Below are positions 5,734 through 15,056 of a DNA stretch of 60,753 bases, in pieces. The DNA is from Enterobacter phage EC151: the sequence record MW464860.1; one strand, given 5' to 3'. Made by a program: the position numbers and the translations under genes. The notes beneath the pieces were generated by a model. The model ran no database searches. It saw nothing but the letters and a program-made list of their open reading frames with translations, and was not told the origin of the DNA. How positions within the stretch are numbered: position 1 is the stretch's first letter; every line of letters starts with the position of its first letter.

Positions 5734-7701
5734 CTACTGATAACCCATCATCTCCAGATATTTATTTGCTTTTGCGATATACGTTTCGTGGTTAAGGTCT
5801 TCAGGAAACTCTTCAGGTAACTCCATCATCGGAACACCACCAGCGGAGTTCGTAACCTTGTTACCAGAAGCCGCATACACCATTTCGGGATAGTCGTCAG
5901 GTCCATAATACCAACGGACCACCTTCCCTAAATAGTGCCCGTTACACACCGCGCCGCCCTTAACGTTGCGAACTACTGCAAATTTACGCACATCGCGGCA
6001 GTTCCTAATGGTGTCTTCAACAGAGATGTTATCTTTCAGCTTAGCTCTAACCGCTTCAATGATAATCTCACCAGTTGGGTTTTTAGATAAACCTGAGTCA
6101 GCGAACCATCCTTTACACTTGAGCTTTCCGTCTTCAGTTATTGCTACATAATTGTTGACGTTGGCACTATACAAAGCCTTATAGAAATTAGACTCCATTT
6201 CAAAGTTGGTTATACCTTCCCACCATTTGATAATCTGCTCAACCAACGGCTCTTGTTCAACAGCATAGTCAACGACAATACCATCAGTGTTGGCAGAGAT
6301 AACTGGAATACCGCACAGCTCGAACGCTTCAATAAGCATAAGCAATGACAGCTGACCAGTGATGGTGGTTTGAATCAGCAATTGTGGAGCGTACAGCACT
6401 GACCACATTGAGCCCAATTTACCAAAGCTACCGTTGATTACGATCTTCAGCGTTTGAGCTGTTTTCTTATCACCGGTATGTTTCGCCCTAAGACGACGCT
6501 CAACAATCTTGCGGTAAACTTTAAGGAATGCTTCACCTAAGTGTTCAGGGAACAGCTTCTGGTTCAGGATGATAGAAGGATAATATGACGCTACGTCAAT
6601 ATCACGTTTCCTTCGTCCTTTAACATAGCGGTGACATGCTCCCTCTTCTGTAGAGTGCAGGCCTCCAATCCCCATCTGATAAGTTGCATTGCCGATGTTA
6701 ATGCGCAAGTTTTTGAGCTGCCAGGGCAACTCTACGGACCCTTTATCGCTAATGACAAAGTCGCACTTACTGACTAAGTCGATAACGCTTTTCATCAAAT
6801 GTGTTTGATACGTTAGGAACGAAGGTACGTTGTATTTATAACGTCTACCAGGCTCAACAGGTGCCCGCGGTAAACGGCGCACTCTGTTCAAGCGACAAAT
6901 TTCATGGCGGATAACGTCTTCAGCAATCTGAGCATCGGAGCGCGAACGCAGGTCGACACCGTATTCTTTAGACATGATCTCGCGCAGGTGAATTTCATCT
7001 TCCAACGCAACAAACAGTGACTCAGTAGCATCCAAGTCGTTAATACAGTAATGACGAACGATAGTCATATGATCGTGTGTAAGCATCATATTAGGCGGGA
7101 ATGGTAAATCCTGAAGTCGTTTGCGGTGCATTCGACCCGCACGTTGTTTCAGGGAACCACCAGCGGGCGCTACTTCCATCACGTCAATGTGGTTAAGTTT
7201 CAACCGCTCGAGCCCGGCTTCTTTCAGTATGTCGCTTGGTCTCCAGTCTTCTGTGATGATACGGTCAGTGGCTTGTTTTAGTGCGGCGTTACTTGCTCCT
7301 GCCAGGGCTAACGTAAGGATTGGTTCATCGTATCCTAGACCGTTATAGCTGACTAGTAAGAAGTTATGCACAACCCAACTAAGCCATTCGATGTTTAGCG
7401 CGTGTCCTAGATACATCTCAAAGTAGATAACTTTCTGCGTCTTAACGTTGCGGAAAGCAATTAAGAAATAGTTAGGATAACATTCAATATCGAATACGTG
7501 AGGTTCACCGGCTTTTTGTGCCTCCAGTAATTCCTCAACAGTATACATATTGATAACAGCCCGGCGAGCCTCGTCAATGCCCGGTAAATAGTCCGGACGT
7601 TCCCAGGTTCGCTCGGGCGGTGTGCGCTTGATCTTTTCTTTTTTAACTTTCGGTGGAGGAGGTAAATCCTGCCAGAAAAAACCAATAGCATCTGTTCTCA
7701 T
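5734..7701 (-). CDS. DNA polymerase, family B, with 3'-5' exonuclease domain
   Basis: Exo motifs DIECYPNYF, YNGLGYDEPIL and YCINDLDATE. Polymerase motifs A (DVASYYPSIIL), B (KIVINGSFGKLG) and C (ISANTDGIVV). Confidence 0.85.
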   Translation of the reverse strand: MRTDAIGFFWQDLPPPPKVKKEKIKRTPPERTWERPDYLPGIDEARRAVINMYTVEELLEAQKAGEPHVFDIECYPNYFLIAFRNVKTQKVIYFEMYLGHALNIEWLSWVVHNFLLVSYNGLGYDEPILTLALAGASNAALKQATDRIITEDWRPSDILKEAGLERLKLNHIDVMEVAPAGGSLKQRAGRMHRKRLQDLPFPPNMMLTHDHMTIVRHYCINDLDATESLFVALEDEIHLREIMSKEYGVDLRSRSDAQIAEDVIRHEICRLNRVRRLPRAPVEPGRRYKYNVPSFLTYQTHLMKSVIDLVSKCDFVISDKGSVELPWQLKNLRINIGNATYQMGIGGLHSTEEGACHRYVKGRRKRDIDVASYYPSIILNQKLFPEHLGEAFLKVYRKIVERRLRAKHTGDKKTAQTLKIVINGSFGKLGSMWSVLYAPQLLIQTTITGQLSLLMLIEAFELCGIPVISANTDGIVVDYAVEQEPLVEQIIKWWEGITNFEMESNFYKALYSANVNNYVAITEDGKLKCKGWFADSGLSKNPTGEIIIEAVRAKLKDNISVEDTIRNCRDVRKFAVVRNVKGGAVCNGHYLGKVVRWYYGPDDYPEMVYAASGNKVTNSAGGVPMMELPEEFPEDLNHETYIAKANKYLEMMGYQ

Positions 7702-7702
7702 T

Positions 7703-8674
7703 TTACGGCCTTTGTCCTATCAATACACCGCGGAAATTATGACCAAAGAAGGTGCAAGGGTTAGGATACAAGCTCATATCGGCGGTTTCCACATTGTCCT
7801 TGAGAAGCATCAACATCTCGAGGGCATAGATACCGTGAACCATATCCGTCTGCATGTTGTAAGACGCGCCTTCTGTTTCGTCCGCATGAGTCCGGACAGT
7901 TCCATTTTCAATATATACGCGACCGGCCTTGTCCGTAAACGGTTTAACTTTCTGCAACGCATCGAAAAGTGAAGGGTCGATTGTTTGCGGGTTACTTTGC
8001 ACGTTAAGAATGTTGTCAATGTTCAAAGGCCAACCGTTCTCCATCAAAGTGCTGCGCATCCAACAGCCCGACTCGTAATGGAACGTGATAGATGTCTTCG
8101 TTACTTGCGCTCGCACTGGTATTTCTTTAATCTTAACCAATGCCTCAACAGCTTCACTAGACAATACCACATCAATAGGGAATGGAGTACCAAACCAATA
8201 CTGAGCAATACAGACGTTATTAGTTGCGTAGGCTGAGCCGCCTTTAATGAGTACAGACATAGAAAATCGGCGAGAAGCATCAGTGCCGACAAAAGGACCA
8301 ACAGCTTTAAGAGCCGTGATAAGCTCCGTTCCGTTAATTTCATAAAACTCTCCTTCCGGGTCCACGTGCGCCGCAATCTTGTCAGTGCAAGGTATGTTGG
8401 CTTTAAATGCTCCGGACTTAATATTCAGCTTACCGTTAGCAAGCAGCGTTAACTGAGTCGCGTCCTCGCAGTTTGCTATTGCCTTAACCATGGGTATTGC
8501 TTCCGGCGCACACTCCACAGCTAATGGGATGGGCGCGGCCATTGCTATTACTCCATTGGTTGCACGGACCATTCCATCCTTGATCAGAAAGTGCGTAGCG
8601 CCCTCAACAAATGCGCGTTTACCAACTGCCGCAGATGCGAACTTCAGAGCTTCAAGCATCACGTAATTCCTCAC
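7703..8674 (-). CDS. hypothetical protein, possibly a beta-clamp-like processivity factor
   Basis: 323-aa ORF directly upstream of the pol gene (1-nt gap). The N-terminal pattern loosely resembles a sliding-clamp domain I. Weak. Confidence 0.35.
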   Translation of the reverse strand: MRNYVMLEALKFASAAVGKRAFVEGATHFLIKDGMVRATNGVIAMAAPIPLAVECAPEAIPMVKAIANCEDATQLTLLANGKLNIKSGAFKANIPCTDKIAAHVDPEGEFYEINGTELITALKAVGPFVGTDASRRFSMSVLIKGGSAYATNNVCIAQYWFGTPFPIDVVLSSEAVEALVKIKEIPVRAQVTKTSITFHYESGCWMRSTLMENGWPLNIDNILNVQSNPQTIDPSLFDALQKVKPFTDKAGRVYIENGTVRTHADETEGASYNMQTDMVHGIYALEMLMLLKDNVETADMSLYPNPCTFFGHNFRGVLIGQRP

Positions 8675-9071
8675 GTATCAGCATCAATAAACGACCGAGC
8701 ATGTTCTTACCACGGTCACCAACTTTACCCCAGTAAACATCACCCCAATGATTACCTTCAACCAGTTCCTCGTCACCCGTTGCTAATAATAAAGCTCTGA
8801 GTTCTGGTATTTCAAACTTGCGCTTTAAAAGGTCGTACATGACCGATACTTTGATTTTGTCCCAATCTTCCCTCATAGGACGTTTTCTAGCAGTACGCTT
8901 TGCGAGCCCTGGGCTAGGACATAACAACACGTCGAGCATATCTTGACCCTTTGTCATTTTCCACGCCTGAAAGGCATGTTCAACAGTCTGCGCTGTGATA
9001 CCGTTCCAACGAAACGGAGAAGGGTGAAAGTTGCTCAGGAACGCATATTCATCTTTGAATGAATTAATCAT
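8652..9071 (-). CDS. NADAR (YbiA-like) domain N-glycosidase
   Basis: Motifs YAFLSNFHPSPF, TVEHAFQAWK and NHWGDVYWG are typical of NADAR/DUF1768. The start overlaps the stop of the DpdA-like gene. Confidence 0.7.
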   Translation of the reverse strand: MINSFKDEYAFLSNFHPSPFRWNGITAQTVEHAFQAWKMTKGQDMLDVLLCPSPGLAKRTARKRPMREDWDKIKVSVMYDLLKRKFEIPELRALLLATGDEELVEGNHWGDVYWGKVGDRGKNMLGRLLMLIREELRDA

Positions 9072-9994
9072 TAGAATAGCTCCTGTATCTTCGGTTCAAA
9101 TATACGCGAATGTTTATCCTTGTTGATACGATCAGCAATCTGCCGATAACTCCACATGTTAAACGTTGCGCGTGTTTCGTATATTGTGGTTAAACGTTCC
9201 AAATCAAAACCCGACTCGGCGATAACGTTGTCGATATATTCTCTCTCCAATGGGTTAAGGGTGAGTACATGTCTACCGGCATCGTGAATGGTTCCGGCTT
9301 TTTCGGAAACCCTGTAAGGTACTCCGTCGGGGATAAACATTGACCCGTAGGCTCCGAACTGAATCCAGCTCGAAGAGTCGACACTATACCAAGGATATCG
9401 CTCCATGACACGGACGGAGGTGATACCGAAGGCGTGAAACTTAGCCTTAGGGCGGCCAGCTCCGTCGATGATGTATCTTTCCCAAATTCGGTCGAGCCAT
9501 ACAATAAGCTGTTCAACCGTCTTGCCAACCATTCCTCCGAGTGTGATGTAGGGGTATTTTGACATGTAGTATTCAAGATACTTTTCATCTTCTCCGAAGT
9601 GGAAACATGGAAGAGGAGTGACTCCTCTTGCTTCCATTTCCATTTGGTTCCGCCAAGTTTGAAGGGGATCTCCGATTCCATCCAGTACGGAGGCCATGAT
9701 AGTTCCGTCGTCCTTTCGGATGATGTCTTCATTTTCTTGAATGTAGCGGCAGTATCCAGGTAGGCTGATCGTTGCGCCCATGTTCCAAGCAGAGAAAGCC
9801 CCTGAGTCAAGGAACACCTGAGCTCCGTCGGCCCGCATTTCGTCAACATACTTTTGGCGGTTAACATAGTGGTAAGACTCCAGGATGTTTGGTATGGTGT
9901 CCACAATTTCAGCTTCGCGCTCGTTCAACTTAGGATAAGTCGATTGGCCTTTGCGAAAGCTGTTAGTGTACACCGCGGCAAGATATAGGTTCAT
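9071..9994 (-). CDS. dpdA: DpdA-like DNA-guanine transglycosylase (TGT superfamily)
   Basis: 307 aa. The FLDSGAF motif is analogous to TGT DSGGFQ, and the length and context match phage DpdA. It sits in a cluster with folE/queD/queC/queE. Confidence 0.65.
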   Translation of the reverse strand: MNLYLAAVYTNSFRKGQSTYPKLNEREAEIVDTIPNILESYHYVNRQKYVDEMRADGAQVFLDSGAFSAWNMGATISLPGYCRYIQENEDIIRKDDGTIMASVLDGIGDPLQTWRNQMEMEARGVTPLPCFHFGEDEKYLEYYMSKYPYITLGGMVGKTVEQLIVWLDRIWERYIIDGAGRPKAKFHAFGITSVRVMERYPWYSVDSSSWIQFGAYGSMFIPDGVPYRVSEKAGTIHDAGRHVLTLNPLEREYIDNVIAESGFDLERLTTIYETRATFNMWSYRQIADRINKDKHSRIFEPKIQELF

Positions 9995-10192
9995 TTATAC
10001 CTCGTTATCTGGACCTAAATTAATCAAATCACGCCACGCTTTATTAAAAGCATTTGAAACCGTTGATTGCGCTTGCACTAATTGGTCAATTAAGACATCA
10101 TTAGGCGCGTCGTTTTGAACGCAAGCAGAAGCGTCGACGGTGGCTGCTTTGAGTTCGTAAAAGATTTTTTCTAACTTTTGTTGTCTGTTCAT
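9995..10192 (-). CDS. hypothetical protein (65 aa)
   Basis: ORF tightly packed in the operon between the dpdA-like gene and folE. Confidence 0.4.
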   Translation of the reverse strand: MNRQQKLEKIFYELKAATVDASACVQNDAPNDVLIDQLVQAQSTVSNAFNKAWRDLINLGPDNEV

Positions 10193-10419
10193 TGTTTCAC
10201 CAATTCAAACCATTCGTTGATACGAGTTTCCAAAATACCTTTAGCGCTGTCAACGCTACTGAATGAGTTCGTACCCTTAGGTAAGCCCGGTAACAAGCAT
10301 TTACCGTCTAGCTTTGATCCGTCGTGCATAGGAACAATGACAGCGACTTTAATCTGGTTTATGTACGCAAATATAGCATCGCGATATTTATATTTACCAG
10401 AACGCCACGTGATCTGCAT
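10189..10419 (-). CDS. hypothetical protein (76 aa)
   Basis: ORF with overlapping start/stop with the downstream gene. Confidence 0.4.
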   Translation of the reverse strand: MQITWRSGKYKYRDAIFAYINQIKVAVIVPMHDGSKLDGKCLLPGLPKGTNSFSSVDSAKGILETRINEWFELVKQ

Positions 10420-10432
10420 TTCTTAACTCCAA

Positions 10433-10453
10433 TAAAAAAGGCCCCGTAGGGCC
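10433..10453 (-). terminator. rho-independent terminator (minus strand)
   Basis: On the minus strand: GGCCC-TACG-GGGCC followed by TTTTTTATT, directly downstream of folE. Confidence 0.7.
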
Positions 10454-10475
10454 TAATTATATACTACATTTTTGC

Positions 10476-11159
10476 TCACTTACAGGCTTCAAGGAACTCT
10501 TTCCGCCACATCAAACCTTCAGTCGACCAAAGCTGCTGAACCCCGGAGTAACGACCCGCAGTTTCGCCGCGGAAGGCTTTTGTTACGGTGCTAGAACCGC
10601 ATGACTGCTTAACGCCGCGGGATTCCATACACATATGGCGAGCGTCGATGTATACGCAAACGGCCAGGGGGTTCAGGTTTTCCCAAATAGCATCAGCAAT
10701 TTGATTGGTCAGTCTTTCCTGTACCTGAAGTCGACGAGCAAAAGCATCAACAACACGAGATAACTTACTGAGACCAACAATCTTCCCATTGGGAACATAA
10801 CCAACAGTGGCGCGACCGATAATAGGTGCCATGTGATGCTCGCAATGAGAGTAAACCGGAATATCACGAACAATAACCAGCTCATTGGTACCTTCCGCGC
10901 CGTCTTCAAACACTTTAAACAGTTCGGAGATATCAACTTTATATCCGCCGAACCAGGTTTCGTAGGCTTTCGCGACACGATCAGGAGTCTCGATAAGGCC
11001 CGGGCGCAGAAGCATACCTTCAGAGCCGCCTTCAATAACATTCAGGATAGCGCTGATATGATAAGCGATTTCGTCACGTTGCGGGTGTTCGAAATCTGCT
11101 TCTGCTTTAATACCTTCGAGTTTTAACTGTTCCATTATTTGGTGTACTCCACGTGACAT
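10476..11159 (-). CDS. folE: GTP cyclohydrolase I
   Basis: Motifs ETPDRVAKA, VYSHCEHHMAPIIG and GLSKLSRVVD...QVQERLT closely match FolE. Confidence 0.9.
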   Translation of the reverse strand: MSRGVHQIMEQLKLEGIKAEADFEHPQRDEIAYHISAILNVIEGGSEGMLLRPGLIETPDRVAKAYETWFGGYKVDISELFKVFEDGAEGTNELVIVRDIPVYSHCEHHMAPIIGRATVGYVPNGKIVGLSKLSRVVDAFARRLQVQERLTNQIADAIWENLNPLAVCVYIDARHMCMESRGVKQSCGSSTVTKAFRGETAGRYSGVQQLWSTEGLMWRKEFLEACK

Positions 11160-11689
11160 TTCGATGTTTCTTCAATGCGGCAAGCAATCAGCTCAACACC
11201 GTAAGGGTCGAGCAGCTCTGGCCCGATAACATTGACCATATGAGCGGCCAGGTTTTCCGCCGTAGGGTTGAACGGCAGTGATACCAGCGAACCAAAATAA
11301 GCATCAGTATGCTCGCAAGGATCTTGTTCTCCAGTTGCAATTTCGTGATGAATACACTGGCGAACTTTTTTGAACAACGGATCATTTTCCCAATGCAGGA
11401 AACGGTGATCCCAATTGTTCTCAAGCCATTCGCAGAGCGTAGACTTAACAACACTGAAATCAATAACGCGACCCAGGTCGTCGAGCTTAGTGCGCTCAGG
11501 GCTTTCTAATTGCATAACAGCCGAAGAGCCTTCAGTGATCGGCACTGTTACAGCACGTTTTTCACGTTTCGGTGCGACTTCGAAGTGAAACACGTAATTG
11601 TGGCCATGCAGGTGACGACATTTGCTTTCGTGGCCTACTACACGGTGACCCGCGCAAATTTCATGAGTACGAATTACTTTTACTGACAT
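11135..11689 (-). CDS. queD: 6-carboxy-5,6,7,8-tetrahydropterin synthase
   Basis: CxxxHGH motif (CAGHRVVGHESKCRHLHGHNY) and IDFSVVK...DHRFL. There is a C-terminal extension of about 60 aa. Confidence 0.8.
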   Translation of the reverse strand: MSVKVIRTHEICAGHRVVGHESKCRHLHGHNYVFHFEVAPKREKRAVTVPITEGSSAVMQLESPERTKLDDLGRVIDFSVVKSTLCEWLENNWDHRFLHWENDPLFKKVRQCIHHEIATGEQDPCEHTDAYFGSLVSLPFNPTAENLAAHMVNVIGPELLDPYGVELIACRIEETSKCHVEYTK

Positions 11690-11730
11690 TGTTATTACCT
11701 CAGTTGAAGCCTTCCCTGGCTAGCCCATTA

Positions 11731-12216
11731 TTAGGCGACTGTTACGCCGTTCCGTTTACGGCCTTCGTAGATGACATATAGTACAGCCGACGCAAGGAAT
11801 TTGGAAACACTCATTGCAATGATCGAACCCCACGAAGCGAAGCCAATCATATGCAGGAAGATAAATGAATCCACCGGAACCGCAACCAACGAACTAATCA
11901 CGACACGTTGATGGAAAGGCTTTTTCGTGATCGTGAAGATAGTATAATCCAGTAGCTCGCTCACTGCAAATGAAGTCACAGATGCCACTACCACGACCGG
12001 ATCACCCAGGAACCAGCTTATAACGCAAGCCAACGCTATAGCCCACAGTACGTGGTGGCCAGCGCTACGCTGCGCATAGTCCCGCAGGACAAACACACAG
12101 CCCACGAAGAACGCCATAAGCGGCACAGGGCCTAACGGAGTGGCTACAATCGGCAGATAACTGAAGCCCAGGTTTACAAACACTACCATCAACAAATAAG
12201 CGACGATGTATTTCAT
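11731..12216 (-). CDS. small polytopic membrane protein, possibly YhhQ/QueT-like 7-deazaguanine precursor transporter (DUF165-like)
   Basis: 161 aa with 4-5 predicted TM helices inside the queuosine-precursor cluster. Loose similarity to YhhQ conserved segments. Shorter than canonical YhhQ. Confidence 0.4.
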   Translation of the reverse strand: MKYIVAYLLMVVFVNLGFSYLPIVATPLGPVPLMAFFVGCVFVLRDYAQRSAGHHVLWAIALACVISWFLGDPVVVVASVTSFAVSELLDYTIFTITKKPFHQRVVISSLVAVPVDSFIFLHMIGFASWGSIIAMSVSKFLASAVLYVIYEGRKRNGVTVA

Positions 12217-12413
12217 TTTAAATCACCTTTATCAAAAAGGCCTGGGCCTTTGATTTTATCTGAGCTAGATCGTTGAAATACTAATTGCACTTCAACGCCC
12301 TTGTAAGTAAAGATGTGATACCCTTCCGCGGAGAAGCATTTAGGTTCTTTCGAAAATATACTTACCCGATCTTCAATAAATTTAGGAAGGTTTTCCAGTT
12401 TCCTTTTCGGCAT
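12213..12413 (-). CDS. hypothetical small protein (66 aa)
   Basis: The ATG at 12413 has a strong AGGAGAAGG RBS. Its stop overlaps the downstream gene start (ATGA). Confidence 0.4.
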   Translation of the reverse strand: MPKRKLENLPKFIEDRVSIFSKEPKCFSAEGYHIFTYKGVEVQLVFQRSSSDKIKGPGLFDKGDLK

Positions 12414-13134
12414 TAACCTTCTCCTGATGTTGGAATAATGCACGTTCAACGGAGGACAGAATATCAATTAAGTCCTGTTCGTAGTCTTTGTGTCCGCGCT
12501 TGCCTGTAGCCAGAAGTTTCTTCAGGGCATGTTGCAACGCGCCAGACGTTACTTCAAAACAATCAATCACGTCGTAAACATCAATAAAAACTCCGGGCTT
12601 GATTTCGCGCTTATATTTGTCGTTAGCATAGAACGGGCCAACGTCAGGCTCTAAGCCAGCCTTATACAGTTCCGCTTGAGTGAGCGGGCCTTTGCTAAAG
12701 CATTGGCGTAACGCTTCATCAGCAGACATACATTCAGGAGCGTCCATTGCCAGCTCTTTAAAGTGATTAGTCTTATAATCAACAATATTATTAACAGGAG
12801 CAGGAGGTAGAACACCAACATGGCTGGACAGGCGCCAGCAATGGATGCCGTTTTCAGGATAAGTTTCAATCGACGACATCACATTATATTCGAGTTTGAC
12901 GTGTACATCGTTGATATTAACATCTGTGAAGATCTTCCCGTCGTTAGTTTGCACATCAAAGTGAAAACCTAAACGGTGCAGATAGTTTAAAGCATTGATA
13001 GAAGTGCGCTGACCGTTGAAGCCAGTATTGTGAATTGCTACCCAACCATCATCACCAACATTACCACGTAACTCAGGATAATACTGGAGCAATGTCAGTT
13101 CAGGTGCCATTACTTTGCGTTTGTTCGTTTGCAT
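12382..13134 (-). CDS. hypothetical protein (250 aa) in the 7-deazaguanine cluster
   Basis: Long ORF between queC and the membrane protein. No recognisable motifs: no P-loop, no SAM motif, no QueF motif. Confidence 0.5.
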   Translation of the reverse strand: MQTNKRKVMAPELTLLQYYPELRGNVGDDGWVAIHNTGFNGQRTSINALNYLHRLGFHFDVQTNDGKIFTDVNINDVHVKLEYNVMSSIETYPENGIHCWRLSSHVGVLPPAPVNNIVDYKTNHFKELAMDAPECMSADEALRQCFSKGPLTQAELYKAGLEPDVGPFYANDKYKREIKPGVFIDVYDVIDCFEVTSGALQHALKKLLATGKRGHKDYEQDLIDILSSVERALFQHQEKVNAEKETGKPS

Positions 13135-13169
13135 GTTAGCTCCTAGGCGCGTCCTTGCGCCACGATCGG

Positions 13170-13904
13170 TTAGAATTTAAAAGGGTTAGCTTCTACAAAG
13201 GCTTCGAAACCAGCCGCGCGGAGTTTACAAGCAGGGCACTCGCCGCAGCCATAGCCCCACACAAAGTTGGTATTGTGGTCACCATTGTAGCAGGTGTGAC
13301 TATCTTCTAACACAACCGTTAAGAAGTCAACTGCTTTCGCGAGTGCGAACGTTTCGGCTTTGTTTAACCACATTAACGGCGTAACAATGCGAATATCAGT
13401 TTGATAACCGATATTCAGCGACTTCGTTAAATGCTTAATAAACACGTCGCGGCAGTCAGGATAGCCGGAATAATCCGTTTCGCATACGCCAGTGATAAGC
13501 GTGTCCGCACCAACCTTCTGCGCATAGGCATGAGCGATAGTAAGAAATAGCGCGTTGCGGTTGGGCACAAAGGAGGCCGGGAGGTTAGCATTCTGAGCGT
13601 GGCGCTCGTTAACATCTTTTTGCTCGGACCCGCGGATCAGCGCACTATTACCAATCTGAGCCAGCGCAGGGATTTCAAACACGTCAAACGGTACGCCGTG
13701 TTCTGCGCAGATTTTAGCGGCGCAATGAATTTCAACTTCATGCTTCTGGCCATAGGAAAAGGCTACAGCGTGAACCTGGTCGAACTTGCGCAAAGCAAGC
13801 CCTAAGCAAGTCACGGAGTCCTGGCCGCCAGACAGGACAACAACGGCGGATTTACCTTCAGTTTCGCTAATTACCAGATCAACTTTCTCTTTAGATACGT
13901 TCAT
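13170..13904 (-). CDS. queC: 7-cyano-7-deazaguanine (preQ0) synthase
   Basis: PP-loop motif VVLSGGQDS. The C-terminal Zn-binding cysteines CYNGD...GCGECPACKLR match stand-alone QueC. Confidence 0.85.
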   Translation of the reverse strand: MNVSKEKVDLVISETEGKSAVVVLSGGQDSVTCLGLALRKFDQVHAVAFSYGQKHEVEIHCAAKICAEHGVPFDVFEIPALAQIGNSALIRGSEQKDVNERHAQNANLPASFVPNRNALFLTIAHAYAQKVGADTLITGVCETDYSGYPDCRDVFIKHLTKSLNIGYQTDIRIVTPLMWLNKAETFALAKAVDFLTVVLEDSHTCYNGDHNTNFVWGYGCGECPACKLRAAGFEAFVEANPFKF

Positions 13905-13905
13905 A

Positions 13906-14352
13906 TCAATACTCCATCAGTTTTTCGAGTGTTACTTCAACAACGGTGCCGGCTTTACAACTCCAGCGGAGGTACTTCTTATCAATCTTACGACCATGAA
14001 CCACGCCAAGCTGGTTCGCTTCGAACTCCAGCTCGCTGATCTTATTATGATGCCATAAAGCGTGTGGAGCATCACAGTACCAGCGAGTTACAACACCTTT
14101 ATTATTCTCCACTAAATAGTGAAGTAAAAGGGTTTCAGCAGACGTACCACTACCTTCATCAGCAACAACACCGAATAAGGTTGTGCGTTGCATACCGCGA
14201 CCTTCAGTAAGGTCTGGTGAGTGGTTAACTCTGAAGAAGGCCAAGTTCTTTTTCAGCTTACTATAATGAGCCTCCCACTCTTTGCAGTCTTGTTCAGATG
14301 TGAACTCACGCCCATCGTCAGAGATGAATACAGGCTGATTAACTTGTCTCAT
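13906..14352 (-). CDS. hypothetical protein (148 aa)
   Basis: ORF between queC and queE, translationally close to both (2-nt gaps). Confidence 0.5.
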   Translation of the reverse strand: MRQVNQPVFISDDGREFTSEQDCKEWEAHYSKLKKNLAFFRVNHSPDLTEGRGMQRTTLFGVVADEGSGTSAETLLLHYLVENNKGVVTRWYCDAPHALWHHNKISELEFEANQLGVVHGRKIDKKYLRWSCKAGTVVEVTLEKLMEY

Positions 14353-14354
14353 AG

Positions 14355-15056
14355 CTACTCCACATTGAGTAATTTATGTATCTGAAGCTGAACTGTATAG
14401 TTATGCTTCATTGCGCTCGCCAGGACCGCGGCAATGTTATCAGCATTGTAACCTGCGTCTTGCTCGTCCATCGGCTGTAGATATATCTTACCCTTAAATG
14501 ACTTAGGAGGTCTCGCGATAAATGGCGTGGCGCGGTGATCGAGGGCTTGCAACGGTAAGCCGTCCTCCGCGTGTACGCTATCCGCCTTCATCACATACTT
14601 AAAGGCATTGGCACGGTGCAGGGCGCTAGGATGCAATTTAGCGGTTTTAGGAGAACACACAACCGTGACCATTTGCGATAGCTCCAGCGGAATTTGCATA
14701 GAGCCATTAGTTTCGATTTGTACGTCGAAATCGTTTTGAATCAGGAAGTCTGCGAACGGTGCAATGTTTTGACGGAAAGGCTCGCCACCGGAAATGACAA
14801 TCAGATTAGCGTTGCTGCTAGTAGCCATTAAACGCTCTTCGATGTTTTGAAGAATGTCTGCGTAGTTTAAGCGAACACGATTAGCAGTGTATTCAGTATC
14901 ACAACCAGGACACTGGAGATTACAGCCAGCGAGGCGGACAAATACAGCAGGACGACCGCAGAAAGGGCCTTCACCTTGAATGGTACTAAAAATGGAATGA
15001 ACTTCGAGGGTAGATTGATAATCTTTCTTTTCAGGAATCTGAGTATTCAGCTTCAT
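14355..15056 (-). CDS. queE: 7-carboxy-7-deazaguanine synthase (radical SAM)
   Basis: Motifs IQGEG, GCNLQCPGCDTEY (the Cx3Cx2C-type cluster motif), ISGGEP and IETNGS. Confidence 0.85.
   Translation of the reverse strand: MKLNTQIPEKKDYQSTLEVHSIFSTIQGEGPFCGRPAVFVRLAGCNLQCPGCDTEYTANRVRLNYADILQNIEERLMATSSNANLIVISGGEPFRQNIAPFADFLIQNDFDVQIETNGSMQIPLELSQMVTVVCSPKTAKLHPSALHRANAFKYVMKADSVHAEDGLPLQALDHRATPFIARPPKSFKGKIYLQPMDEQDAGYNADNIAAVLASAMKHNYTVQLQIHKLLNVE

What the first reader, a model, noticed from the sequence alone, without database searches (positions are those of the whole stretch)
8652..9071. NADAR N-glycosidase translationally coupled to DpdA
The NADAR start overlaps the dpdA-like stop, so the two are co-expressed. 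NADAR enzymes hydrolyse N-glycosidic bonds. YbiA acts on riboflavin-pathway ribosylaminopyrimidines. Other NADARs reverse DarT2 ADP-ribosylation of guanine in DNA. There are two hypotheses. (a) It is an anti-DarTG counter-defence, removing ADP-ribose from guanines that remain unmodified. (b) It clears reactive GTP-cyclohydrolase / 7-deazapurine side-products. Physical coupling to the base-exchange enzyme is unusual.
Basis: partly seen in the sequence, partly recalled or inferred. Interest (0 to 1): 0.7.

Follow-up and report, generated by a model that had tools for sequence, protein, structure and literature searches.

The report
Phage NADAR enzyme beside DpdA
A phage that swaps modified guanines into its DNA also carries a small optional enzyme that most likely strips ADP-ribose tags, placed on guanine by a bacterial toxin, off the phage DNA; this is a new example of a known trick.

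Summary
Window 8652-9071 (-) is a 139-aa NADAR protein (Pfam 84.7 bits, cutoff 35.1; AF2 pLDDT 96; TM 0.87 to YbiA, 0.84 to an ADP-ribose-bound NADAR). Its ATG shares one base with the dpdA stop (TAATG). That overlap is generic: 9 of 65 same-strand junctions in this genome have it.

The window is Enterobacter phage EC151. The gene is deposited as 'swarming motility protein' and is not discussed in the phage's paper.

The closest tested relative is AdfN^Bas32 (49% identity). It neutralises the guanine-ADP-ribosylating toxin DarT1 and rescues Bas25, a NADAR-less 7-deazaguanine phage, from DarTG1. It does not counter DarTG2.

All ADP-ribose-contacting residues are present, including a lysine (K58) needed for DarT1 rescue in vivo. 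E. coli YbiA has alanine there.

Relatives with 95%-identical DpdA lack the gene, so it is an optional cassette in a variable dpdA-clamp slot, not part of the modification pathway.

A YbiA-like metabolite-repair role is not excluded: the protein is 44% identical to YbiA and just passes TIGR02464.

Verdict: a new member of a known kind, of modest interest, and directly testable because the phage is cultured.

The parts
8652..9071 (-). NADAR gene, 139 aa. It has the compact core with no N-terminal extension. Active-site and ADP-ribose-contact residues are E31, K38, K58, R62, W70, K74, E105, D111 and W114.
   Evidence: Pfam PF08719 84.7 bits. phrog_1017. AF2 pLDDT 96. Foldseek 2b3w TMq 0.87 and 8bau TMq 0.84. 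Residue mapping. Exact protein is QSL98914.1 of Enterobacter phage EC151.
9071..9994 (-). dpdA, the 7-deazaguanine DNA transglycosylase, 307 aa. It lies immediately upstream of the NADAR gene.
   Evidence: phrog_887 4.8e-81. 60% identical to CAjan and Iggy DpdA, 95% to K4PH164.
9069..9073 (-). TAATG junction. The dpdA stop and the NADAR start share base 9071.
   Evidence: Read directly from the sequence.
9080..9084 (-). AGGAG Shine-Dalgarno sequence, 8 nt upstream of the NADAR ATG and inside the dpdA 3' end.
   Evidence: Read directly from the sequence. Its function is inferred.
7703..8659 (-). DNA polymerase processivity factor (sliding clamp). Its ATG at 8659 overlaps the NADAR stop by 8 nt.
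   Evidence: phrog_947 3.7e-68. The MLEALKF start matches homologues.
5734..7701 (-). DNA polymerase, the last gene of the gap-free block.
   Evidence: phrog_1252 7.7e-212.
9995..10419 (-). Two small ORFs (65 and 76 aa) that open the gap-free block upstream of dpdA.
   Evidence: Conserved in relatives at 68-82%. No family hit.
10439..10454 (-). Terminator-like GC hairpin followed by a T-run, between folE and the orf76-dpdA-NADAR-clamp-pol block.
   Evidence: Consensus scan only. Not evidence of function.
10476..15056 (-). Context: the preQ0 pathway genes folE, queD, a Vut_1/YhhQ-like transporter, queC and queE.
   Evidence: Described for EC151 in PMC8310023.

Best explanation
The ORF encodes an active, minimal NADAR ADP-ribosyl glycohydrolase. 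It most likely serves as an orphan-antitoxin-like counter-defence factor of the AdfN type. DarT1-type toxins attach ADP-ribose to N2 of guanine on single-stranded phage DNA, and this blocks replication. The NADAR would hydrolyse that bond and restore the template.

The gene is an optional cassette in a hypervariable slot between dpdA and the sliding-clamp gene. It is transcribed, and probably translationally coupled, with dpdA, the clamp and the DNA polymerase. The enzyme would therefore be made when replicating ssDNA is exposed. It is not a step of the 7-deazaguanine pathway.

Shown here: identity, fold, residues, gene arrangement and the presence/absence pattern. Inferred: the substrate, the in vivo role and the timing.
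For: 1. Family and fold. Pfam NADAR 84.7 bits. AF2 pLDDT 96. TMq 0.87 to YbiA and 0.84 to P. nicotianae NADAR bound to ADP-ribose.

2. Active site. Every residue that contacts ADP-ribose in 8bau has a counterpart: E31/E43, K38/K50, K58/K75, R62/R79, W70/W89, K74/R93, E105/E125, D111/D130 and W114/W133. Most are invariant in 82 homologues.

3. Closest tested relative. AdfN^Bas32 is 49% identical, 130 bits. It neutralises DarT1 in E. coli. It restores RB69, T5 and Bas25 on DarTG1 hosts, but does not restore T5 on DarTG2.

4. The Bas25 experiment. Bas25 (VogelGryff) is a Seuratvirus of the Queuovirinae with dPreQ0 DNA. Its DpdA is 60% identical to the window's, and it has no NADAR (H202). It is strongly restricted by DarTG1 and rescued by that NADAR supplied in trans. 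7-deazaguanine therefore does not protect against DarT1, and a NADAR does.

5. The K58 lysine. K58 corresponds to E. coli C7 NADAR K115, which is dispensable for catalysis but essential for DarT1 rescue in vivo. AdfN^Bas32 also has Lys there. YbiA has Ala and T4 gp30.3 has Gln, and neither rescues uninfected cells.

6. Accessory-gene behaviour. K4PH164, L018 and L019 have DpdA 95% identical but only a ~54-aa ORF in the slot. L017 and L023 carry other genes there.

7. Allele exchange. Between the window and L015 the flanks are 83-95% identical but the NADAR is 59%. NADAR dS is 2.35 against about 1.05 for dpdA and the clamp.

8. Placement in other phages. NADARs in unrelated phages without DpdA also sit in replication or nucleotide-metabolism modules.
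Against: - There is no experiment on this protein or on EC151.
- E. coli YbiA is nearly as similar (44% identity, 91 bits). It hydrolyses guanine-ADPr in vitro but does not protect against DarT1 in vivo.
- The window protein passes the TIGR02464 'riboflavin intermediates N-glycosidase' cutoff (84.4 against 73.7), whereas AdfN^Bas32 does not (66.3).
- Grouping with AdfN^Bas32 in a neighbour-joining tree has weak bootstrap support (31%).
- NADARs also act on cytidine-ADPr, and soluble ADPr derivatives have been proposed as substrates.
- Whether Enterobacter hosts carry DarTG1 was not examined.
- The K58 correlation rests on four proteins.
Confidence: 0.6

Rival explanations
1. YbiA-like metabolite damage control. 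The enzyme would hydrolyse reactive ribosylaminopyrimidine-type by-products generated when the phage drives GTP into the FolE/QueD/QueE/QueC pathway.
For: The protein passes TIGR02464 (84.4 against a cutoff of 73.7). It is 44% identical to E. coli YbiA with the YbiA-type Glu105. It sits in a phage that encodes GTP cyclohydrolase I. Every NADAR closest to it whose context could be read is in a DpdA/FolE phage at the same slot.
Against: Relatives with the same pathway genes lack it: K4PH164, L018, L019, L020, L022, and all DpdA-carrying records examined in the phage collection. The same NADAR type is common in T5-like and other phages with no FolE or Que genes nearby (L002-L012). YbiA's known substrates come from GTP cyclohydrolase II and RibD, not from FolE (established knowledge). 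The TIGR02464 score is marginal next to YbiA's 169.5.
Confidence: 0.15
2. Counter-defence against a different ADP-ribose-based attack. Candidates are ADP-ribosylated cytidine or RNA, other guanine ARTs (pierisin/ScARP-like or YarT-like toxins), or soluble ADPr-derived immune signals.
For: YbiA-type and other NADARs remove cytidine-ADPr. A myxobacterial YbiA-like NADAR is the antitoxin of a non-DarT ART, YarT. Comparative genomics proposed soluble ADPr derivatives as the targets of phage NADARs.
Against: No such activity has been shown for the AdfN^Bas32 clade. The only in vivo phenotype known for the closest tested relative is DarT1/DarTG1 reversal. This rival overlaps the main explanation mechanistically, since it is the same chemistry placed by a different writer.
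Confidence: 0.17
3. Integral helper of DpdA base exchange. For example, it would prepare or clear guanine sites so that DpdA can insert preQ0.
For: The only support is the adjacency, the 1-nt overlap, and the recurrence of NADAR at the dpdA-clamp junction in phages whose DpdA is 51% to 100% identical to the window's.
Against: DpdA phages without a NADAR modify their DNA (CAjan, 9g). The closest relatives lack the gene. In several loci a small ORF separates dpdA and the NADAR, or follows the NADAR. The overlap architecture is generic.
Confidence: 0.03

Closest known systems
AdfN^Bas32, the orphan NADAR of T5-like phages Bas32/Bas33 (bas32_0066, bas33_0070)
   Same: Phage-encoded and stand-alone, about 140-150 aa, with no N-terminal extension. 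It has the Glu-type active site and a Lys at the C7-K115 position. It is 49% identical to the window protein over the whole length. It sits in a DNA-metabolism module. It has been tested: it neutralises DarT1 and rescues a Queuovirinae phage from DarTG1, but does not counter DarTG2.
   Different: It belongs to a different phage family (Markadamsvirinae, about 110 kb, no DpdA). It scores below the TIGR02464 cutoff, whereas the window protein scores above it. The clade relationship is only weakly supported.
E. coli YbiA (PDB 2b3w), the N-glycosidase of riboflavin intermediates
   Same: Same compact fold (TMq 0.87). 44% identity. Same Glu signature. Both pass TIGR02464.
   Different: YbiA has Ala where the window protein has K58. 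YbiA is chromosomal and lies next to rhlE and dinG, in what the literature describes as a LexA-controlled operon. It does not protect against DarT1 in vivo.
DarG1, the DarT1-associated NADAR antitoxin (E. coli C7)
   Same: Same superfamily and the same predicted chemistry, hydrolysis of N2-guanine-ADPr. The in vivo-critical lysine is shared.
   Different: The window gene has no adjacent darT1 and no basic N-terminal extension. It has Glu instead of the subfamily's catalytic Asp. It matched no DarG model in PADLOC.
AdfN^T4 (T4 gp30.3)
   Same: A phage orphan NADAR used against DarTG1.
   Different: It has almost no sequence similarity to the window protein (20 bits). It has His in place of Glu105 and Gln in place of K58. 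It needs a T-even infection context to work.

Membership tests
NADAR superfamily (PF08719 / DUF1768) | Profile match above the curated threshold | tested here: met
   84.7 bits against a cutoff of 35.1, E 1.1e-23, residues 6-137.
NADAR superfamily (PF08719 / DUF1768) | Alpha-helical core flanked by small beta-sheets, superposable on solved NADARs | tested here: met
   AF2 pLDDT 96, pTM 0.89. Foldseek 2b3w TMq 0.87 and 8bau TMq 0.84, probability 1.00.
NADAR superfamily (PF08719 / DUF1768) | Conserved catalytic Glu and Lys (P. nicotianae E43, K50) plus the acidic residue at the E125 position | tested here: met
   E31, K38 and E105 are present, and invariant in 82 homologues.
AdfN (phage orphan anti-DarT1 NADAR, a functional class) | Phage-encoded NADAR with no cognate DarT next to it | tested here: met
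   Its neighbours are dpdA and the sliding clamp. The window is the complete EC151 phage genome. The rest of the genome was not scanned for ADP-ribosyltransferases.
AdfN (phage orphan anti-DarT1 NADAR, a functional class) | Close relationship to an experimentally validated AdfN | tested here: met
   49% identity and 130 bits to AdfN^Bas32. It falls in the same small clade in the NJ point tree, but bootstrap support is only 31%.
AdfN (phage orphan anti-DarT1 NADAR, a functional class) | Lysine equivalent to E. coli C7 NADAR K115, required for DarT1 rescue in vivo | tested here: met
   K58 aligns to P. nicotianae K75, which corresponds to C7 K115. AdfN^Bas32 has Lys, YbiA has Ala and T4 gp30.3 has Gln.
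AdfN (phage orphan anti-DarT1 NADAR, a functional class) | Removes ADP-ribose from guanine in DNA and restores phage growth on DarTG1 hosts | not testable with these tools
   This needs plaque assays and an in vitro glycohydrolase assay.
DarG1 (DarT1-linked BC4488-type NADAR antitoxin) | Encoded in an operon with darT1 | tested here: not met
   The flanking genes are dpdA and the clamp.
DarG1 (DarT1-linked BC4488-type NADAR antitoxin) | Basic N-terminal extension, and Asp replacing the YbiA-type Glu | tested here: not met
   The 139-aa protein starts at the core. Position 105 is Glu.
YbiA / TIGR02464 riboflavin-intermediate N-glycosidase | NCBIfam equivalog-domain score above the cutoff | tested here: met
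   84.4 against a cutoff of 73.7, a marginal pass. YbiA scores 169.5 and AdfN^Bas32 scores 66.3.
YbiA / TIGR02464 riboflavin-intermediate N-glycosidase | Housekeeping context: fused or linked to RibA/RibD, or in the chromosomal dinG-ybiA-rhlE locus | tested here: not met
   It is a phage accessory slot with no riboflavin genes nearby.
YbiA / TIGR02464 riboflavin-intermediate N-glycosidase | Hydrolyses ribosylaminopyrimidine phosphates | not testable with these tools
   This needs an enzyme assay.
T4-type AdfN (gp30.3-like) | His replacing the conserved Glu, and sequence similarity to gp30.3 | tested here: not met
   E105 rather than His. BLASTP 20 bits, E 0.006.

The most novel reading that the evidence does not exclude
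The recurrent placement of a NADAR exactly at the dpdA-clamp junction reflects a co-adapted, two-layer 'guanine protection' module. The placement is seen in phages whose DpdA is 51% to 100% identical to the window's. In this reading, 7-deazaguanine insertion blocks restriction enzymes. The NADAR keeps guanine and 7-deazaguanine N2 free of ADP-ribose. It might be specialised for ADP-ribosylated dPreQ0, or needed so that DpdA can still exchange bases on DarT1-attacked DNA.
Probability: 0.08. Interest if true: 0.6.

Novelty: new member of a known kind. Interest (0 to 1): 0.3.

Why it matters
Phage EC151 is cultured, and its DNA modification has been shown to be active. It is therefore a natural system for asking how a base-modifying phage deals with a defence that its modification does not block. 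Published work already shows that a NADAR-less phage of the same subfamily (Queuovirinae) is killed by DarTG1 and rescued by a related NADAR. EC151 and its NADAR-less near-twins, such as Klebsiella phage K4PH164, form a ready-made natural comparison. The work would also correct a legacy annotation ('swarming motility protein'). It would add a siphovirus lineage to the list of phages carrying AdfN-type counter-defence genes.

Tried and rejected
- IMG/VR scan with the NADAR protein: only 7 distant loci (40-44% identity), none with DpdA, FolE or QueD within 6 kb.
- IMG/VR scan with DpdA: 10 loci, and none of the 7 with a readable slot has a NADAR.
- tblastn with a fused DpdA+NADAR query against 50,697 phage records. 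Four records reached 80% coverage or more. All four are single-piece alignments whose extra stretch is weak (about 16% identity, my estimate). In the one annotated record (BL5) it runs into the clamp gene, so these are not NADARs.
- Neighbour-joining tree with bootstrap. The slot NADARs form one clade in the point tree, but support is only 17-48%. I cannot decide between one old acquisition and repeated acquisitions.
- dN/dS. dS is saturated for NADAR pairs. Only the contrast with the flanks is usable.
- Promoter scan: no more sites than in shuffled sequence (17 against 17).
- The supplementary table of NADAR accessions in the AdfN paper is not held. I identified AdfN^Bas32 from the GenBank locus tags bas32/bas33 instead. 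The two copies differ by 2 of 149 residues, although the paper calls them identical.
- Literature search for a NADAR-deazaguanine link: nothing relevant.
- The L017 slot ORF as a second DpdA-like protein: BLASTP is not significant.
- PADLOC: only a weak PDC-M42C hit, and no DarG model.
Full report
**What is at the coordinates**

The ORF 8652..9071 on the minus strand encodes 139 residues. It matches Pfam NADAR (PF08719) at 84.7 bits against a cutoff of 35.1, and phrog_1017 at 1.5e-39.

The gene upstream, 9071..9994, matches phrog_887 (queuine tRNA-ribosyltransferase) at 4.8e-81. It is 60% identical to the DpdA of phages CAjan and Iggy and 95% identical to that of Klebsiella phage K4PH164.

On the minus strand the junction reads TAATG. 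The dpdA stop (9073-9071) and the NADAR ATG (9071-9069) share one base. An AGGAG sequence lies 8 nt upstream of the ATG. At its other end the NADAR stop overlaps the ATG of the sliding-clamp gene (8659) by 8 nt.

The run orf76-orf65-dpdA-NADAR-clamp-DNA polymerase has no gap larger than 1 nt. A terminator-like hairpin lies just upstream of this block (10454-10439), but that is only a consensus match.

However, 26 of 65 same-strand junctions in the window overlap, and 9 have the same 1-nt overlap. The coupling is how this genome is packed. It is not a mark of a special relationship with dpdA.

**Where the window comes from**

The exact NADAR protein is QSL98914.1, 'swarming motility protein', of Enterobacter phage EC151. 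The EC151 genome is 60,753 bp, the length of the window.

The EC151 paper describes folE, queD, queC, queE, dpdA and a preQ0 transporter. It shows that the DNA resists several restriction enzymes. It never mentions this gene.

EC151 is not in the phage collection I could search. The nearest record there is Klebsiella phage vB_Ko_K4PH164 (Queuovirinae), at 81.6% nucleotide identity.

**The protein**

An AlphaFold2 model built on 82 homologues has mean pLDDT 96. It superposes on E. coli YbiA (TMq 0.87) and on the Phytophthora nicotianae NADAR bound to ADP-ribose (8bau, TMq 0.84). Nothing else in the PDB matches.

I mapped the alignment to 8bau onto the published contacts. Every ADP-ribose-contacting or catalytic residue has a counterpart:

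| Window residue | P. nicotianae residue |
|---|---|
| E31 | E43 |
| K38 | K50 |
| K58 | K75 |
| R62 | R79 |
| W70 | W89 |
| K74 | R93 |
| E105 | E125 |
| D111 | D130 |
| W114 | W133 |

Position 105 is the Glu that defines the YbiA-type branch. DarT1-linked antitoxins have Asp there, and T4-like phage NADARs have His. The protein has no N-terminal extension, unlike DarG1.

**Closest characterised relatives**

The nearest tested protein is AdfN^Bas32, from the T5-like BASEL phages Bas32 and Bas33. I identified it through the GenBank locus tags bas32_0066 and bas33_0070. It is 49% identical to the window protein, at 130 bits.

Johannesman et al. 2025 showed three things about AdfN^Bas32. It neutralises DarT1 in uninfected E. 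coli. It restores RB69, T5 and Bas25 on DarTG1 hosts. It has no effect on DarTG2, which modifies thymidine.

E. coli YbiA is 44% identical, at 91 bits. It removes guanine-ADPr in vitro but does not protect against DarT1 in cells. T4 gp30.3 is barely similar.

NCBIfam gives a mixed signal:

| Protein | TIGR02464 score (cutoff 73.7) |
|---|---|
| Window NADAR | 84.4 |
| AdfN^Bas32 | 66.3 |
| E. coli YbiA | 169.5 |

One residue helps to separate the two readings. E. coli C7 NADAR K115 (P. nicotianae K75) is dispensable for catalysis but essential for rescue from DarT1 in vivo. The window protein (K58) and AdfN^Bas32 have Lys at that position. YbiA has Ala and T4 gp30.3 has Gln. Neither YbiA nor gp30.3 rescues uninfected cells. 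K58 is invariant across the 82 homologues. This is a correlation over four proteins, backed by one mutagenesis result.

**The most relevant published experiment**

Bas25 is VogelGryff, a Seuratvirus of the Queuovirinae with dPreQ0-modified DNA. Its DpdA is 60% identical to the window's, and the record has no NADAR (H202). Bas25 is strongly restricted by DarTG1 and is rescued to full titre by AdfN^Bas32 supplied in trans.

DarT1 attaches ADP-ribose to N2 of guanine and acts only on ssDNA. 7-deazaguanines keep N2 (my knowledge of the base). The modification therefore does not protect this kind of phage against DarT1, and a NADAR of this type does.

**Is the gene part of the DpdA pathway?**

No. 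Phages with 95%-identical DpdA and the same pathway genes (K4PH164, L018, L019) have only a ~54-aa ORF between dpdA and the clamp. L020 and L022 also lack a NADAR there. L017 carries an unrelated 198-aa ORF, and L023 carries HD-like and MazG-like ORFs.

Among DpdA-first samples, none of the 7 IMG/VR loci with a readable slot has an adjacent NADAR. The fused-query search found no adjacent pair in any of the 50,697 phage records, of which 154 carry a near-full-length DpdA match.

Conversely, this NADAR type occurs in 517 phage records. These are mostly Streptomyces, Vibrio, Bacillus and T5-like phages. The loci I examined have no DpdA, FolE or QueD nearby (L002-L012).

**The association is recurrent, though**

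The closest NADARs whose context I could read all sit in the same slot of DpdA phages. The order relative to the small ORF varies:

| Arrangement | Where seen |
|---|---|
| dpdA-NADAR-clamp | window, L015/L016, L036-L038 |
| dpdA-small ORF-NADAR-clamp | L013, L027, L029, the P0001 contig |
| dpdA-NADAR-small ORF-clamp | L028 |
| dpdA-92-aa ORF-NADAR-clamp | L033, a distant phage (DpdA 51%, clamp 46%, NADAR 56%) |

The 90%-identity cluster of the window protein has 27 members. Many are on 50-61 kb contigs.

NADAR identity stays at about 56-61% whatever the relatedness of the phage backbone. Against L015 the flanks are 83-95% identical while the NADAR is 59%, with sharp boundaries at the dpdA stop and the clamp start. 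NADAR dS is 2.35, against about 1.05 for the flanks. This points to exchange of alleles through the conserved flanks.

In the point-estimate tree the slot NADARs form one clade, but bootstrap support is weak. One old acquisition and several acquisitions therefore cannot be told apart.

Presence/absence polymorphism, allele turnover and purifying selection (dN/dS about 0.2, with saturation) together are what is expected of a counter-defence cassette.

**Placement in other phages**

In unrelated phages the homologous NADAR also sits among replication or nucleotide-metabolism genes:

- directly before the DNA polymerase in Ruegeria phage Tedan;
- after nrdB, DHFR, thyA and RNase H in T5-like phages;
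- near the DNA ligase gene in T4.

Co-expression with the clamp and the polymerase fits an enzyme that must clean ssDNA templates. That link is an inference.

The identification and the physical overlap are correct. The anti-DarTG idea is the best-supported reading, but the subtype must be corrected from DarT2 to DarT1. The clause about unmodified guanines has no support.

The metabolite-repair idea cannot be excluded on sequence alone. It is disfavoured by the distribution of the gene.

The pairing with dpdA is indeed rare among deposited genomes. It is best explained by a recombination-prone accessory slot, not by a functional partnership.

**Overall**

This is a new member of a known kind (AdfN-type orphan NADAR). 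It occurs in a phage lineage where it had not been noted, and it is currently mis-named in GenBank. Interest is modest. Its main value is that the hypothesis can be tested directly in a cultured phage that has natural NADAR-less relatives.

Noticed in passing
whole window: The window is the complete genome of Enterobacter cloacae phage EC151 (60,753 bp). The NADAR is deposited as 'swarming motility protein' (QSL98914.1), and the phage's paper does not discuss it. EC151 itself is absent from the phage collection searched.
   Followed up: yes
L017:4927-5523: In a relative with 95%-identical DpdA, the dpdA-clamp slot holds a 198-aa ORF (phrog_15826, function unknown) instead of a NADAR. It carries an 'IDNGAFSG' motif that recalls the DpdA 'LDSGAFSA' motif, but BLASTP against DpdA is not significant.
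   Followed up: partly
L023:4825-5906: In a distant DpdA phage the same slot holds an HD/YfbR-like ORF and a MazG-like ORF. Both are weak Pfam hits below the cutoff. The junction therefore collects nucleotide-metabolism accessory genes.
   Followed up: partly
L001:7646-7810, L013:5847-6008, L028:6420-6581: A conserved 52-60-aa ORF with no family match occupies the slot in most relatives. It lies before, after, or in place of the NADAR. It is absent from the window.
   Followed up: partly
window 11731-12216 (-): The Vut_1/YhhQ-like membrane protein (the preQ0 transporter of the EC151 paper) scores 27.0 bits, just under the Pfam cutoff of 27.2.
   Followed up: no
window 13906-14352 (-): A 148-aa ORF between queC and queE has no PHROG match. 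In K4PH164 the equivalent stretch is annotated as a short 'radical SAM domain-containing protein'.
   Followed up: no
window 10439-10454 (-): A strong terminator-like hairpin (AGGCCCTACGGGGCCT followed by a T-run) lies between folE and the orf76-dpdA-NADAR-clamp-pol block. It may separate two transcription units.
   Followed up: no
window 8652-9071 (-): NCBIfam has a model NF053876, 'DS32_2 NADAR family anti-phage protein', so NADARs also occur on the defence side. The window protein scores 59 bits against a cutoff of 240 and is not a member.
   Followed up: partly
L005:2995-3444 and L032:3642-4091: The GenBank NADAR proteins of Bas33 (HildyBeyeler) and Bas32 (IrisVonRoten) differ at 2 of 149 residues, although the AdfN paper calls them identical. 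One figure legend of the BASEL paper also labels KurtStettler as Bas33, whereas another legend of the same paper gives KurtStettler as Bas22 and the locus tags assign Bas33 to HildyBeyeler.
   Followed up: partly
L034:1-10423: A NADAR 56% identical to the window's sits in an unrelated ~60-kb contig. Its neighbours are vault/MVP-like, TROVE-like (DUF2828), metallophosphatase, AAA_33 kinase-like and Band_7/flotillin genes. This is an unusual neighbourhood with no DpdA.
   Followed up: no
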